From: an uncultured Fibrobacterota bacterium
Lineage (GTDB): Bacteria > Fibrobacterota > Chitinivibrionia > Chitinivibrionales > FEN-1185
Assembly (NCBI GenBank): GCA_963753345.1
Contig: CAVWBU010000015.1
Location: 32,001 to 96,000 of the forward strand
Reading direction: 5' to 3'
Length of the DNA stretch: 64,000 nt
Positions 34,731-63,178 of the stretch are shown one piece after another. The notes under the pieces were generated by a model. That model saw only the letters and a program-made list of their open reading frames with translations, made no database searches and was not told where the DNA came from. Each line of letters starts with the position of its first letter. The stretch's first letter is position 1. Both the position numbers and the translations under genes were made by a program.

Positions 34731-34888
34731 ATGGGCGTTCCCCTCCCCCTCGACTTCGCTCGGGGTTGGGCCGGTCTCCCTCCGGGCTCGGCTTCTCGCC
34801 TCGTTGCCGCCTGCCACTAAGGCCCTTCGGGCCGTGGTCGGGCGGCGATGCGCTCTTGCTCACCCTCCGGTCCACCTAACGCGCGGCA
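34731..34888 (+). repeat. Family A repeat, copy A2 (followed by a CAACT array at 34929-34948)
   Basis: ATGGGCGTTCCC...CCACCTAACGCGCGGC. Confidence 0.9.
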
Positions 34889-35033
34889 ACGAAATCTATT
34901 CTGTCAATCATTTCTTCTCGCGCCAGTCTTCAACTCTCAACTTTCAACTATTTTTCTCGGTGCGGCCACAACAATGCATGGTCTTGCACAAAGGGAAAAG
35001 TGAAAGTCACGTGATACCCGAAGAGTGGTATTT

Positions 35034-35206
35034 GCGCCAGGGGCGACTGGAGGTCGTGCTGGAGCACGATGCTGCCCGGACCCGCCGCAACGCGGCATAG
35101 GGCCGTGGCAGCCCGAGGCCTTGGCCGAGACCGGAAGGAGAACCGGTGCCGAAGGCAGGCGCCCAATTCTTTAACTGGGTTTTTGAGACAGCCTGAACTT
35201 CCCCCG
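35034..35206 (-). repeat. Family A repeat, copy A3, with GTCTCAAAA leader
   Basis: Reverse complement is nearly identical to 50454-50540 over its first ~85 nt. Confidence 0.88.
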
Positions 35207-35215
35207 CAAAATGAG

Positions 35216-36301
35216 CTACTTCTTGATTTTCGAAGTGGTTCCAACCATAAACTCAACCTTCATCTCCACCGTGTTCGAGAAGAACGAAAGCTTGTCGTCC
35301 GGGTCGCTTCTGTCGGTATTGATATCCTTGTTGAGCACGAACCCCTTTTTTTCCCTGAAAAACCCCAGGTACCGCCCCACATAGCACACAGAAACCTCCA
35401 TACCCGAGGTTTTCGACAATGCGCGCTGGGACGAGATGCCGATTCTCCATCCGCCGCCGTACCCCCAGGCGTAGAAGTTCCTAAGGTTCGCCCTGGCCGC
35501 CACAATCACCGAATCCGGGACGCCGGACCAGGCGACCGAAGTCTGTTTTGACAGATAGGAATACGGCAGGATGTATGCGCCCACGATGACGGACGTGCGG
35601 TCCACGCCTTCTATGCGGAACAACTTTTCGTCAAGGCTGTGCCGATACAGCATGCCCACGTTGAAGGTGTAGGAATCGAGCGATTGCCGGTAGTTGACTT
35701 TCCCGGACGCGGTGTCGCGCTGGAGCGTGGCCTGGAGCACCTTGCCGATGTAACAGAAAGAGCCTTCGAACGACACCGAACTCTTGCGGTAGACGAGCGG
35801 GGTCCAGGAGACCGATATCGGGAAAAGGATGTTGTAGGTGTTCACGGGTTCCGTCACCGACATGCCGAACGTGTCCGGATTCATGGGCAGAATCTTCTGC
35901 ACCGAATCCGGGAGGTTGCTCTGCCAGTCGTTGAAAATGTCGAACGATCCCAGCGCCCAGCCGATGCCGAATCCTATCGAAGGAATCTTGAGGAAAAGGC
36001 TGGCGGTGTCTTCAACCGCAACAGCGGTTTTCCTCTGGAGCTGAAGCGCTGTCCTTTTCAGAAGAGAGTCGTTTGACAATGACGCCGGGTTCTTCTGCGT
36101 TGAATCGGAAACCTTAACAGCGGCAGGAGCGGTGGATGTGTCCTTTGACTGAAGAGATGCGGGCCTTTTGAGAGTGTCCGCAGGCGAGGGATTGACTTTG
36201 AGGGAATCACGGTCTGCGCAATACGCCTGCGTTGTACAGACAAAAGCCGCCGCAATGACGATCATCAACAAGGATTGATGAAAAGATGGCGAGTGGTTCA
36301 T
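35216..36301 (-). CDS. Hypothetical exported, probably outer-membrane, protein
   Basis: Signal peptide, low-complexity linker, beta-strand-like C-terminal part. Confidence 0.65.
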   Translation of the reverse strand: MNHSPSFHQSLLMIVIAAAFVCTTQAYCADRDSLKVNPSPADTLKRPASLQSKDTSTAPAAVKVSDSTQKNPASLSNDSLLKRTALQLQRKTAVAVEDTASLFLKIPSIGFGIGWALGSFDIFNDWQSNLPDSVQKILPMNPDTFGMSVTEPVNTYNILFPISVSWTPLVYRKSSVSFEGSFCYIGKVLQATLQRDTASGKVNYRQSLDSYTFNVGMLYRHSLDEKLFRIEGVDRTSVIVGAYILPYSYLSKQTSVAWSGVPDSVIVAARANLRNFYAWGYGGGWRIGISSQRALSKTSGMEVSVCYVGRYLGFFREKKGFVLNKDINTDRSDPDDKLSFFSNTVEMKVEFMVGTTSKIKK

Positions 36302-36999
36302 GGTGTCGGTACCGTCCGTTTCTTTTCTGCCTGCACCTCGCTGAGGTAGCGCGGCACGATGTTTTCCGCAGTCGTCCATCCGGCGCTGTCGCCGTTGCGG
36401 AGGCCGGCAATCATGGCGCAAGAGAGCCCGCGCTGGAGCGGGAATCGTTCAACGGGAAATACCGAAGTCCTGCCTTTCAGAAAATCGAATGCCGTGCTTC
36501 TTGCATAGCCGAGCGTGTCCGTGATCACAATGTCGTTATTGGAAACGGCCTGCTTGAATTCCTCGACCGTGGAGAGAACGTCGTCCGAGAGGCGCGCCAT
36601 TGCGCCGCCGCATTTTTCGAACCTGGCCGAGAACACCTGGCCGTTGCGCGCGTCCGACGCGCACACGATGAGGGCGTCACGCGCGTGCCAGGCTCCCGCC
36701 ATGCTTTCCAGAGAGGAAACCGGCAGCACGCGGCCGTCGCGGCCGAAAAGAAAACCCTTGAGAAAAGCAATGCCGATGCGCAGGCCGGTAAACGAACCGG
36801 GCCCCACCGCGATTGCGGCATGAGAAATTTCCGAGGGTTTCACCTTGTTCGCGGCCAGAAGATAATCCACTGCCTGGCTGATGTGCTCGGCGTGCGAATT
36901 GCGCAGGTATCTCGACACCGCCATCACGGGACAGCCGTCCGAGGCGAGGCCGATGCCGAGCTCGATGGACGATGTGTCGATGCCGAGCGTGTGATTCAT
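36298..36999 (-). CDS. tsaB: t6A biosynthesis protein TsaB
   Basis: 'LGIDTSS', 'HAE', 'GPGSFTGLRIG', 'DAR...VF', 'P.Y'. Confidence 0.92.
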   Translation of the reverse strand: MNHTLGIDTSSIELGIGLASDGCPVMAVSRYLRNSHAEHISQAVDYLLAANKVKPSEISHAAIAVGPGSFTGLRIGIAFLKGFLFGRDGRVLPVSSLESMAGAWHARDALIVCASDARNGQVFSARFEKCGGAMARLSDDVLSTVEEFKQAVSNNDIVITDTLGYARSTAFDFLKGRTSVFPVERFPLQRGLSCAMIAGLRNGDSAGWTTAENIVPRYLSEVQAEKKRTVPTP

Positions 37000-62500: not shown

Positions 62501-62835
62501 TCAACGCCAAGGAAGTGCCCAAGATCGGCGAGGGCAAACCCGACATCATTGACCTCATCAAGGGCGACGACGTGGACCTTATCATCAACGTGGTGGCGGG
62601 ACGCAAGTCGCAGCTCGATTCGAAGCCGATACGCAGCGCTGCCGTGGTGCAGGGCGTTCCGTACATCACTACGCTCGAGGCGGCCCAGGCCGCGATCTCG
62701 GCACTCGACTCGCTGGAAAAGACCGGATTTTCAGTTAAGTCGATTCAGGAGTATGCGGCATCGTTGATAAAAGGCAACGACAAGGGGAATGGGGACGATA
62801 TCGGGTTCAAGAAGGCGGTGTGGAGCAAGGGATGA
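59548..62835 (+). CDS. carB: Carbamoyl-phosphate synthase large subunit
   Basis: 'MPKRTDI', '[10 protein letters not shown]', duplicated ATP-grasp domains, MGS domain. Confidence 0.98.
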
Positions 62836-62850
62836 GGAAGACATTGTCGA

Positions 62851-63044
62851 GTGGGGGAGGTCTCCCCTCGCTACGGCCCGGCCGCGCAGGTTTGCAAAGT
62901 AATATTCCGAATGTGCGCGTCCGGTCCTCCGCTACCCCCTCCTGGGTGGCCCCCTTGATGGCGCAGTGGCAAGCGCGACACATGGTTGTGGGGGCACCGA
63001 CGAAGAGCAGTTGAAAAGTTGAAACGTTGAATCGTTGAAACGTT
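62851..63044 (+). repeat. Family B repeat (B4) with GTTGAA tail
   Basis: Matches the reverse complement of 24975-25164. Confidence 0.88.
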
Positions 63045-63082
63045 CAAGAGATCGAGATTCGGAACTTTTCTTGTGGAGCAAT

Positions 63083-63178
63083 TGGCGGGAGACCCGGCCT
63101 CAAGGCATAGGGCGGGCGGCAACGAGGCGAATAGCCGGCCCGGAGGGAGACCGACCCCGCGAAGCGGGGGAACGCCCA
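63083..63178 (-). repeat. Family A repeat, truncated copy A12
   Basis: CGGCAACGAGGCGAATAGCC...GGAGACCGACCCC...GGAACGCCCA. Confidence 0.82.

What the first reader, a model, noticed from the sequence alone, without database searches (positions are those of the whole stretch)
34821..63169. C-GNA-G triloops on one strand suggest these elements fold as single-stranded DNA
Seen: perfect stems close 3-nt loops that read GNA on the strand antisense to GGGCG. Examples are GGCCC-GAA-GGGCC (34821), TGCC-GAA-GGCA (35147), GGCC-GAA-GGCC (45379, 45636, 49183, 57655), GGCCC-GCA-GGGCC (45409), GGCC-GTA-GGCC (53332), CCGCCGC-GTA-GCGGCGG (53362) and CCCCGC-GAA-GCGGGG (63155), plus GGC-GAAA-GCC (45668). The middle base varies while G and A are fixed. 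One exception at ~50535 has GCA on the other strand. Established: d(GCGNAGC) and d(GCGAAAGC) are extra-stable mini-hairpins in DNA but not in RNA. Inference: the functional form is ssDNA, for example a substrate of an HUH/RAYT-type transposase or a priming signal, rather than an sRNA.
Basis: partly seen in the sequence, partly recalled or inferred. Interest (0 to 1): 0.8.

Follow-up and report, generated by a model that had tools for sequence, protein, structure and literature searches.

The report
One-stranded DNA-style hairpin caps in repeats
A 160-base repeat that fills gaps between genes in this bacterium caps its hairpins, on one strand only, with loops known to be extra stable in single-stranded DNA, which hints at, but does not prove, that it works as folded DNA rather than as RNA.

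Summary
All cited hairpins are at the stated coordinates. Genome-wide the repeat has 411 copies. Among perfect-stem 3-base loops inside copies, 311 read GNA on the strand antisense to GGGCG and 14 on the sense strand, of 763 in all. At the two homologous hairpin tips, 123 of 165 and 152 of 220 are GNA; a 45-copy subfamily has ACA instead. GNRA and UNCG tetraloops are rare.

I add an invariant tandem mismatch beside one hairpin, which reads G.A/A.G on the same antisense strand.

The single-stranded-DNA reading is only partly supported.
- No Y1 HUH/RAYT, reverse transcriptase or TnpB gene was found in this 94%-complete genome.
- Y1 genes in sister species are not flanked by the repeat.
- Orientation bias against GC skew is weak (58%).
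- Wobble-pair counts favour neither strand.
- The neighbouring B module carries GNA loops on the other strand.
- No RNA run was listed, so RNA is not excluded.

This scan had already reported the repeat family on other DNA of this genome. The strand asymmetry is the new part.

The parts
24737..24894 (+). A-family repeat copy; the sense strand carries GGGCG
   Evidence: Covariance-model match, 98.1 bits; nhmmer hit.
34732..34888 (+). A copy. Its P5-tip hairpin GGCCC-TTC-GGGCC at 34821 reads GAA on the antisense strand.
   Evidence: Covariance-model match, 145.3 bits; hairpin found.
35028..35165 (-). A copy of the GGGCGCC/CCTGGCGC subtype. Its P2 hairpin TGCC-GAA-GGCA is at 35147.
   Evidence: The P1 closing stem covaries: TT/AA in 24 sequences and CC/GG in 8 of 32.
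40928..41067 (-). A copy. Its P2 loop is AAGA on the sense strand and its P4 is GGC-CAAG-GCC; neither is GNA.
44149..44316 (+). A copy with a long, unrelated P2 hairpin, lying 3' of the GH2 gene
   Evidence: gene assignment.
45312..45477 (+). A copy with GGCC-TTC-GGCC at 45379 and GGCCC-TGC-GGGCC at 45409. It is the left member of an inverted pair.
45581..45745 (-). A copy, right member of the inverted pair, with GGCC-GAA-GGCC at 45636 and GGC-GAAA-GCC at 45668. The model match ends at 45720; by my reading the 5' end (GGGACG variant) reaches about 45745.
49161..49252 (-). Short A variant that lacks P5 and P6; GGCC-GAA-GGCC at 49183
   Evidence: (56.6 bits).
50495..50632 (+). A copy. It has TGCC-TTC-GGCA at 50503 and GGCCC-TGC-GGGCC at 50564. 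It also holds the one sense-strand GNA in the window, GGCC-GCA-GGCC at 50534.
53244..53386 (-). A copy with GGCC-GTA-GGCC at 53332 and CCGCCGC-GTA-GCGGCGG at 53362
57596..57754 (+). A copy with GGCC-TTC-GGCC at 57655. Its P5 tip GGCCC-ACA-GGGCC at 57686 is not GNA on either strand.
63034..63178 (-). Truncated A copy running into a B module; CCCCGC-GAA-GCGGGG at 63155
   Evidence: (45.2 bits).
34889..34935 (+). Example of the conserved 3' tail (GAAnTCTnTTCnGTCAA, then TTGCGCCA) that follows most A copies
   Evidence: Tail profile from 184 of the 379 copies for which a tail could be read; listings.

Best explanation
The hairpins belong to a high-copy, REP/BIME-like structured intergenic repeat, the 'A family'. 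It is about 160 bases long, folds into eight helices closed by a long-range stem, and has 411 copies in this genome. It spreads or persists as selfish or domesticated DNA.

Shown: the structure is selected for, and one strand is special. The strand antisense to GGGCG carries the stable caps: C-GNA-G triloops, with GAAC, GAAT, GAAA and GAAYA variants at P4. It also carries an invariant tandem G.A/A.G motif beside P4 and purine-rich unpaired stretches.

Inferred: that strand is the one that must fold. The most likely state in which it does so is transient single-stranded DNA, either a mobility intermediate or the exposed lagging-strand template. In that state mini-hairpin caps let the fold form quickly, resist SSB and present the invariant motifs to a protein.

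The protein is not a RAYT or IS200-type enzyme encoded in this assembly, and it remains unknown.
For: Copy number and location: 411 nhmmer hits, 200 on + and 211 on -. 407 of 411 lie outside my called genes.

Structure: 89.1% of cells are paired, against 31-47% when partners are slid. 17 of 44 pairs change on both sides, and 0 of 500 shuffles reach the observed values.

Selection on the fold: between 38 nearest-neighbour pairs, paired sites differ at 8.2% and unpaired sites at 15.7%. 48 of 54 double-sided changes keep the pair.

Caps on the antisense strand:
- P4: 123 of 165 triloops are GNA.
- P5 tip: 152 of 220.
- P2, whose stems differ between subfamilies: 61 of 98 triloops are GNA antisense against 2 on the sense strand. 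Counted as distinct stem-plus-loop types, that is 19 against 2 of 40.
- P4 tetraloops read GAAC (21) and GAAT (7) of 53.

Invariant blocks: CTCGG and CCTCG beside P4 are at most 3% non-consensus across the copies, against a median of 14% for all columns. They give C.T/T.C on the sense strand and G.A/A.G on the antisense strand.

Predicted stability: the antisense strand folds more stably in 292 of 405 copies with RNA parameters and in 322 of 405 with DNA parameters. These models give GAA and TTC triloops equal energy, so the difference does not come from the triloops.

Published properties of the motif: DNA mini-hairpins are far more stable than their RNA versions, bind SSB poorly, and occur at single-stranded-DNA priming and promoter sites (PMC13037366, passages). 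The preference of d(GNA) triloops for a C-G closing pair is described in PMC5815330 (passages) and PMC3201870 (abstract in the listing).

Orientation: there is no fixed orientation to neighbouring genes. Of 395 copies with two called neighbours, 131 are between convergent genes, 116 are tandem and antisense, 84 are tandem and co-oriented, and 64 are between divergent genes. This argues against an orientation-bound mRNA element. The antisense strand lies on the G-rich strand in 203 of 351 copies (p=0.004).

Mobility: 4 of 5 congeners hold at least 72 scored matches and one 99%-complete congener holds none. The bioB spacer holds the element at opposite ends and in opposite orientation in G000 and G001. 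The lexA|dnaE2 spacer is 63 bases in the element-free congener and 488 bases, with an inverted A pair, here.

No Rfam family matches at E<=1.
Against: Enzymes:
- No Y1 HUH gene was found in this genome, and no RVT_1 or TnpB either.
- Y1_Tnp genes in G002, G004 and G005 are not flanked by the repeat.

Strand bias: the skew bias is weak. It is 53-61% between convergent genes and 52-57% between divergent genes, where transcription is symmetric. GC skew is also an unverified proxy for replication direction in a 55-contig draft.

Loops:
- Loop positions 1 and 3 are no better conserved than the average column. The pattern could therefore be inherited from a few ancestral TTC loops.
- 45 of 220 P5 tips are ACA.
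- P6 loops (TCCA, TTTG, TCTG and others) are not GNA-like on either strand.
- The B module that follows A carries GNA triloops on the A-sense strand, 47 against 13. No single strand of the composite carries all the caps.

Fold: a closed multi-helix junction is not what known single-stranded-DNA sites such as REP, IS608 ends or attC look like (my recollection).

Wobble pairs: G.U-type pairs slightly favour the sense strand. The counts are 65 against 19 in the model-fitted alignment, which leans towards that model. In strand-symmetric counts they are 158 against 138 and 63 against 61.

Age: nearest-neighbour identity has a median of 91%, so there has been no recent burst.
Confidence: 0.38

Rival explanations
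1. The antisense strand is a structured RNA, either a small RNA or a read-through 3'/5' UTR module. The GNA, GAAA and GAAYA loops and the tandem G.A are then ordinary RNA motifs: sheared G.A caps and GNRA-like folds. The U/C-rich run after the closing stem acts as a terminator.
For: - The element is a closed junction of eight helices with strong covariation, which is typical of RNA.
- Unpaired stretches on the antisense strand are purine-rich, as in structured RNAs (sequence).
- The antisense strand is predicted to be more stable in 292 of 405 copies with RNA parameters.
- The sense 5' flank is A/purine-rich (A at -5 in 98 of 123 copies), so the antisense strand ends in a pyrimidine/U-rich run.
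- The gene on the sense 3' side converges on the element in 249 of 400 cases, so read-through from that gene would make antisense RNA.
- Sheared G.A in GNRA loops and a functional GAA triloop in an RNA aptamer are described in PMC13037366 and PMC12550061 (passages).
Against: - GNRA and UNCG tetraloops, the usual RNA caps, are rare. Triloops dominate, and their RNA versions are much less stable than the DNA ones (PMC13037366).
- Sense A.C pairs would be antisense G.U pairs, and they show no excess: 138 against 158 and 61 against 63.
- No -10/-35-like pattern fits the conserved tail. TTGAC is conserved, but no -10 lies at a workable spacing.
- Orientation to genes is not fixed.
- There is no Rfam match.
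Confidence: 0.3
2. Neither strand is functionally special. The repeat acts, or merely persists, as double-stranded DNA or through both strands, for example as a protein-binding mosaic like BIME or as a two-way terminator. The GNA/TNC bias is inherited from a few ancestral TTC loops plus compositional asymmetry.
For: - Loop positions 1 and 3 vary as much as average columns.
- Most examples are two homologous hairpins.
- Strand-symmetric wobble counts are balanced.
- Copies are enriched between convergent genes (131 of 395) and rare between divergent genes (64 of 395).
- The repeat forms a mosaic with a tail, CAACT octamers and a B module whose caps sit on the other strand.
Against: - The same cap recurs on P2 stems of different sequence with a 19 to 2 strand bias.
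- The invariant CTCGG/CCTCG mismatch never becomes a Watson-Crick pair.
- Covariation, including the long-range P1 stem, needs a single-stranded fold at some stage.
Confidence: 0.22
3. The sense (GGGCG) strand is the functional RNA. The C-UNC-G loops are then incidental, or out-of-register look-alikes of the UNCG tetraloop.
For: - G.U pairs outnumber A.C pairs 65 to 19 in the model-fitted alignment.
- G.U pairs in minimum-energy folds number 1614 on the sense strand and 1238 on the antisense strand.
- The upstream gene is co-oriented in 222 of 406 cases, with a median gap of 75 bases.
- CUUCGG occurs in the P4 and P5-tip sequences.
Against: - The 65 to 19 count comes from an alignment fitted to a sense-strand RNA model. 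Symmetric counts are 158 to 138 and 63 to 61.
- The UNCG register breaks the stem, and at P2 the base after the loop is C, not G.
- Tandem C.U/U.C mismatches and pyrimidine loops destabilise RNA.
- The sense strand is predicted to be less stable in 292 of 405 copies.
Confidence: 0.1

Closest known systems
REP/BIME elements and REPINs moved by RAYT (Y1 HUH) enzymes (PMC3116915, PMC3479197 and PMC6006769; abstracts seen in the search listing only)
   Same: Hundreds of intergenic copies, hairpin-forming, frequent inverted pairs, and a mosaic with other repeat modules. Distribution among close species is patchy. A single-stranded form is implied by compensatory changes.
   Different: About 160 bases with eight helices and a long-range closing stem, instead of a single hairpin of 20-40 bases. 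No RAYT or Y1_Tnp gene is in this genome, and those of sister species are not flanked by the repeat. GNA caps are not a REP feature that I know of (recalled).
DNA mini-hairpins d(GCGNAGC) and d(GCGNNAGC) at single-stranded-DNA signals: the phage G4 primase site, RSF1010 ssiA (CCGAAGG) and phage N4 virion RNA polymerase promoters (GCGGAGC) (PMC13037366, passages)
   Same: C-G closing pair, G first and A last in a 3-base loop (4-base in GAAA), on one strand only. P2 of several copies contains the exact GC-GAA-GC core.
   Different: Those are single functional sites on phage or plasmid single-stranded DNA with a known protein partner. Here there are about 400 chromosomal copies, each with two or three such caps inside a larger fold, and no known partner or single-stranded phase.
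Modular structured repeats without a known enzyme: BOX elements of Streptococcus pneumoniae and bcr1 of the Bacillus cereus group (recalled; no paper read)
   Same: Repeats of 100-200 bases with predicted stable folds, modular make-up (A, tail, octamer repeats, B) and an unknown mode of spread.
   Different: No sequence relation was tested. Strand-specific DNA-type caps have not been reported for them, as far as I recall.
IS200/IS605 ends and integron attC sites, which are folded single-stranded-DNA substrates (recalled; PMC6006769 abstract)
   Same: One strand folds and is the substrate. A bias towards the lagging-strand template is expected.
   Different: The bias here is weak, 203 of 351. 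There is no cognate transposase or integrase beside the repeats, and the fold is far more complex.

Membership tests
REP/REPIN-RAYT system | A RAYT (Y1 HUH, PF01797) gene in the genome, flanked by the repeats | tested here: not met
   0 matches in this genome, which is 94.26% complete. Sister species G002, G004 and G005 have Y1_Tnp genes. The repeat model finds only one copy, about 2 kb away, in 1 of the 5 loci fetched.
REP/REPIN-RAYT system | Short imperfect palindrome (about 20-40 bases) as the unit | tested here: not met
   The unit is about 140-185 bases with 8 helices.
REP/REPIN-RAYT system | High copy number, extragenic, often in inverted pairs | tested here: met
   411 copies, 407 of them outside my called genes. 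Inverted pairs lie at 34732+/35165- and at 45312+/45745-.
DNA mini-hairpin motif d(C-GNA-G) | 3-base loop with G first and A last, closed by C-G, on one strand | tested here: met
   P4: 123 of 165. P5 tip: 152 of 220. P2: 61 of 98. Strand ratio 311 to 14. Of 207 GNA/TNC hairpins with stem >=5 inside A copies, 200 are closed by C-G.
DNA mini-hairpin motif d(C-GNA-G) | The molecule that folds is DNA, not RNA | not testable with these tools
   Nearest-neighbour models give GAA and TTC loops the same energy in both parameter sets. No RNA run was listed.
IS200/IS605-type single-stranded-DNA elements | Strong orientation bias towards the lagging-strand template | tested here: inconclusive
   The antisense strand lies on the G-rich strand in 203 of 351 copies (57.8%). 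The figure is 53-61% in convergent and 52-57% in divergent contexts. This is a draft genome and GC skew is used as a proxy.
Any Rfam RNA family | Covariance-model match | tested here: not met
   0 matches at gathering score in the whole window. 0 matches at E<=1 in 24500-64000.
MITE (DDE-transposase derived) | Terminal inverted repeats and target-site duplication | tested here: inconclusive
   One filled and one empty site were compared (lexA|dnaE2). The spacers are too diverged (66-76% identity in the genes) to read a duplication. The purine-rich AAGA before GGGCG appears beside both members of the inverted pair, in mirror orientation.
Retroelement-borne repeat | A reverse transcriptase in the genome | tested here: not met
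   RVT_1 gives 0 matches in this genome and in G003 and G005. It is present in G002 and G004.

The most novel reading that the evidence does not exclude
The A family is a chromosomal element whose working form is a folded single-stranded DNA junction of eight helices. It is capped by DNA mini-hairpins and carries an invariant sheared-G.A motif. A protein that is not a Y1 HUH enzyme reads it, either as a new kind of single-stranded-DNA mobility substrate or as a dispersed priming or SSB-exclusion signal on the lagging-strand template. The B module would do the same job on the other strand.
Probability: 0.25. Interest if true: 0.85.

Novelty: new variant of a known kind. Interest (0 to 1): 0.55.

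Why it matters
If the caps really mark a DNA fold, this would be a dispersed bacterial repeat with a complex single-stranded-DNA structure and no RAYT. That would point to an unknown enzyme or to a host use of structured single-stranded DNA at replication forks.

It would also give a cheap sequence test for telling DNA-acting from RNA-acting repeats in uncultured genomes: GNA triloops and tandem G.A on one strand, without GNRA or UNCG tetraloops.

If the RNA reading is right instead, the family is a large uncatalogued structured RNA with unusual loops. Either way, the strand to study is now defined.

Tried and rejected
- RNA evidence: the look-up of sequencing runs (kind rna) on window 41001-51000 listed no RNA holder.
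- RAYT, TnpB and reverse transcriptase as the mobilising enzyme: not found in this genome.
- Wobble-pair test for the folding strand: no clear answer. Symmetric counts were 63 to 61 and 158 to 138. The 65 to 19 count is biased by the sense-strand model.
- MAFFT plus RNAalifold on all full-length copies failed because of insertions. I replaced it with a hand-drawn structure checked by pair counts.
- P7 pairing of GGGTCGG with CCGGTCC: rejected. The G/A change in the 3' block is not compensated, and the 5' CCGG/CCAG block changes in parallel with it rather than in complement.
- UNCG look-alike reading of C-UUC-GG: rejected. The tetraloop register breaks the stem, and at P2 the following base is C.
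- Promoter in the conserved tail for an antisense RNA: TTGAC is conserved, but no -10 fits.
- Homology of the B module to A or to its reverse complement: only weak local alignments.
- Target-site duplication from the G003 empty site: the spacers could not be aligned.
- My regex parse of the P4 flanks was unreliable and I do not use it.
- d(cGNABg) as a stable DNA tetraloop class that would cover GAAC and GAAT: I recall it, but my search did not bring up a passage. I treat it as unverified.
- Supplementary files of papers were not opened.
- The phylum and order names (Fibrobacterota, Chitinivibrionales) come only from earlier scan notes. I did not test them.

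
Full report
WHAT IS THERE

The cited hairpins all lie inside copies of one repeat. On its sense strand it reads (A/G-rich)-T-GGGCGTTCCCC ... CCTAACGCGCGGCA. An iterated nhmmer search of the laid genome (4.52 Mb, 55 contigs) finds 411 copies, 200 on + and 211 on -. Twelve are in the window.

Earlier notes of this scan had already described this 'A family' on other DNA of the same genome and compared it with REP/BIME (e1-3242892, e1-2377682, e1-2250730, e1-3242891). 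The phylum and order names come from those notes only. Rfam has no match at gathering score or at E<=1.

STRUCTURE

I aligned 32 copies and drew eight helices by hand:
- P1, a closing stem that joins the two ends;
- P2, a variable hairpin, counted as two helices (outer and inner);
- P3;
- P4;
- P5, a long arm in two helices (P5a/b and the tip);
- P6.

On that alignment 89.1% of cells pair, against 31-47% when partners are slid. 17 of 44 pairs change on both sides, and 0 of 500 shuffles reach the observed values. P1 switches from GCGTT/AACGC in 24 sequences to GCGCC/GGCGC in 8.

A covariance model built from this alignment finds 53 matches in the window plus 30 loci. Between 38 nearest-neighbour pairs of that alignment, paired sites differ at 8.2% and unpaired sites at 15.7%. 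48 of 54 double-sided changes keep the pair. A single-stranded fold is therefore selected at some stage.

THE OBSERVATION

All eleven cited hairpins and the exception are present. Genome-wide, among perfect-stem (>=4 bp) 3-base loops:
- At the P5 tip, 152 of 220 are T-N-C on the sense strand, which is G-N-A on the antisense strand (TTC 76, TGC 62, TCC 8, TAC 6). A further 45 are ACA and 4 are GCA.
- At P4, 123 of 165 are TNC (TTC 81, TCC 28, TGC 9, TAC 5). A further 12 are TTT and 4 are GCA.
- Over all 763 such hairpins inside copies, 311 are TNC, 14 are GNA on the sense strand and 438 are other. Many of the 'other' are competing pairings such as GGCC-TCG-GGCC.

P2 has stems of different sequence in different subfamilies, so it is the least dependent test. 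Of its 98 triloops, 61 are TNC and 2 are GNA on the sense strand. Counted as distinct stem-plus-loop types, that is 19 against 2 of 40. Several P2 hairpins contain the exact GC-GAA-GC core on the antisense strand.

In coding DNA the GNA plus TNC share of stem>=5 triloops is 727 of 5500 (13.2%), which is the chance level.

GNRA and UNCG tetraloops are rare. P6 loops are TCCA 77, TTTG 32, TCTG 25, TATG 25 and TCTA 22 of 250, and 14 are of UNCG type.

LIMITS OF THE OBSERVATION

Loop positions 1 and 3 vary in about 11% and 19% of P4 triloops. That is no less than the median column, at 14% non-consensus. 'G and A fixed' therefore does not itself show purifying selection.

The P5-tip ACA subfamily, the CAAG loops at P4 in some GGGCGCC-type copies and the P6 loops do not fit the pattern.

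FURTHER STRAND ASYMMETRY

- The blocks CTCGG and CCTCG that flank the P4 stem are the most conserved part of the element, at most 3% non-consensus. They face each other as a 2x2 mismatch: C.T/T.C on the sense strand and 5'-GA/3'-AG on the antisense strand, flanked by C-G. That this mismatch forms sheared pairs is my recollection.
- P4 tetraloops read GAAC (21) and GAAT (7) of 53 on the antisense strand. Pentaloops read GAATA or GAACA.
- Unpaired linkers are pyrimidine-rich on the sense strand (TCTCCCTCC, CCCTCC).
- The antisense strand is predicted to be more stable in 292 of 405 copies with RNA parameters and in 322 of 405 with DNA parameters. These models score GAA and TTC loops alike.

The antisense strand is therefore the better candidate for the folding strand.

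DNA OR RNA?

For DNA:
- The cap spectrum matches the DNA mini-hairpin family. The review PMC13037366 (passages) reports GCGNAGC and GCGNNAGC as extraordinarily stable and r(GCGAAAGC) as melting at only 39 C. It reports poor SSB binding and natural sites at the G4 primase site, RSF1010 ssiA and N4 promoters.
- The C-G closing preference of d(GNA) is described in PMC5815330 (passages).
- Orientation to neighbouring genes is not fixed (the gene calls are my own crude ORF caller).
- The antisense strand lies on the G-rich strand in 203 of 351 copies.

Against DNA:
- That bias is weak and comes mostly from tandem-gene contexts. It is 65-69% in the tandem antisense context and 42-44% in the tandem co-oriented context.
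- This genome has no Y1 HUH, RVT_1 or TnpB match.
- The Y1_Tnp genes of G002 (8 matches, a multi-copy IS), G004 and G005 are not flanked by the repeat.
- The fold is more RNA-like than any single-stranded-DNA site I know.
- In 201 composites the B module downstream of A has GNA triloops on the A-sense strand, 47 against 13.

Wobble-pair counts do not decide:
- 63 G.U-type against 61 A.C-type in a strand-symmetric fold;
- 158 against 138 in a symmetric alignment of P5 in 249 copies;
- 65 against 19 in the model-fitted alignment, which leans towards the sense-strand RNA model.

Balanced counts argue against host-level selection on every copy as an RNA of either strand. They fit decay after copying.

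No RNA run was listed.

MOBILITY AND CONTEXT

- Four of five congeners carry at least 72 scored matches each. One 99%-complete congener has none, and elsewhere in the order hits are sporadic.
- In the bioB spacer, G000 has A next to bioB in sense orientation. G001, which is 90% identical in the genes, has it at the far end in the opposite orientation.
- The lexA|dnaE2 spacer is 63 bases in the element-free congener. Here it is 488 bases and holds an inverted A pair.
- Nearest-neighbour identity has a median of 91%. Several of the 100% pairs involve short contigs that duplicate longer ones.
- The 5' end of A sits a median of 75 bases from a gene end. The 3' side carries a conserved tail, CAACT octamers and often a B module.

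VERDICT

The single-stranded-DNA inference is a reasonable lead, which I put at about 0.4. It is not established, and its specific RAYT version is not supported.

Noticed in passing
window 24895-25170, 62836-63034, 40601-40688, 49024-49111, and genome-wide downstream of A copies: A second structured module ('B', starting GGGTGCCCCC and ending in a GGGGGA..TCCCCC hairpin) follows A after the tail and CAACT octamer repeats. Its GNA triloops (GGCC-GAA, CGCC-GAA) lie on the A-sense strand, 47 against 13 in 201 composites. A and B therefore have opposite cap polarity.
   Followed up: partly
window 34889-34935 and after most A copies: Conserved tail GAAnTCTnTTCnGTCAA, then about 10 bases, then TTGCGCCAATCGG. 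TTGAC on the antisense strand is nearly invariant, but no -10 box fits, so this may be a protein-binding site.
   Followed up: partly
window 6521-6634, 14340-14411, 24970-25005, 44419-44464, 63017-63052: Runs of an 8-base unit (TTCAACNN, or AGTTGAGA on the other strand) in variable number lie between the A tail and B, and also occur elsewhere.
   Followed up: no
window 45782-48928: The dnaE2-like gene appears split into three overlapping ORFs (45782-46129, 46050-46400, 46361-48928). In congener G003 the PHP-domain start follows lexA directly in one frame. This could be frameshifts or assembly errors.
   Followed up: partly
window 40900-57800: The SOS-mutagenesis neighbourhood holds 8 of the window's 12 A copies. 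It comprises lexA 44403-45293, dnaE2-like, imuB-like 49284-50489 and dinB-like 51862-53082. The imuB-like gene has A copies abutting both ends with their 5' ends inward. This may be chance.
   Followed up: no
window 57560-57600 versus L042 (G001): The last residues and the stop codon of bioB differ between G000 and G001, because different repeat modules abut the gene end.
   Followed up: partly
within A copies, model columns about 51-58 and 142-149 of alignment A1: CCCTCCGG occurs twice per element as a direct repeat. Its G/A variant (CCGG or CCAG) tends to change in parallel in the two places, not in complement. On the antisense strand these read GGAGGG, which resembles a Shine-Dalgarno sequence. 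35% of well-scoring genes have an SD-like 4-mer upstream, against 13% in a control window.
   Followed up: partly
window 1221-2840: Six tandem copies of a 264-base unit (88 codons) lie inside a giant ORF that runs off the window start.
   Followed up: no
genome contigs C55, C4, C39, C44 and others: Some short contigs carry A copies and flanks identical to parts of long contigs, for example C55 at about 698 and C15 at about 89598. They are probably assembly duplicates and slightly inflate the copy count.
   Followed up: no
G002 (sister species), contigs C5, C15, C22, C31, C40: Six matches to a 144-residue Y1_Tnp ORF, five with the same score (99 bits) and one at 97.5, indicate an active IS200-type element in a congener. 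It is absent from G000.
   Followed up: partly
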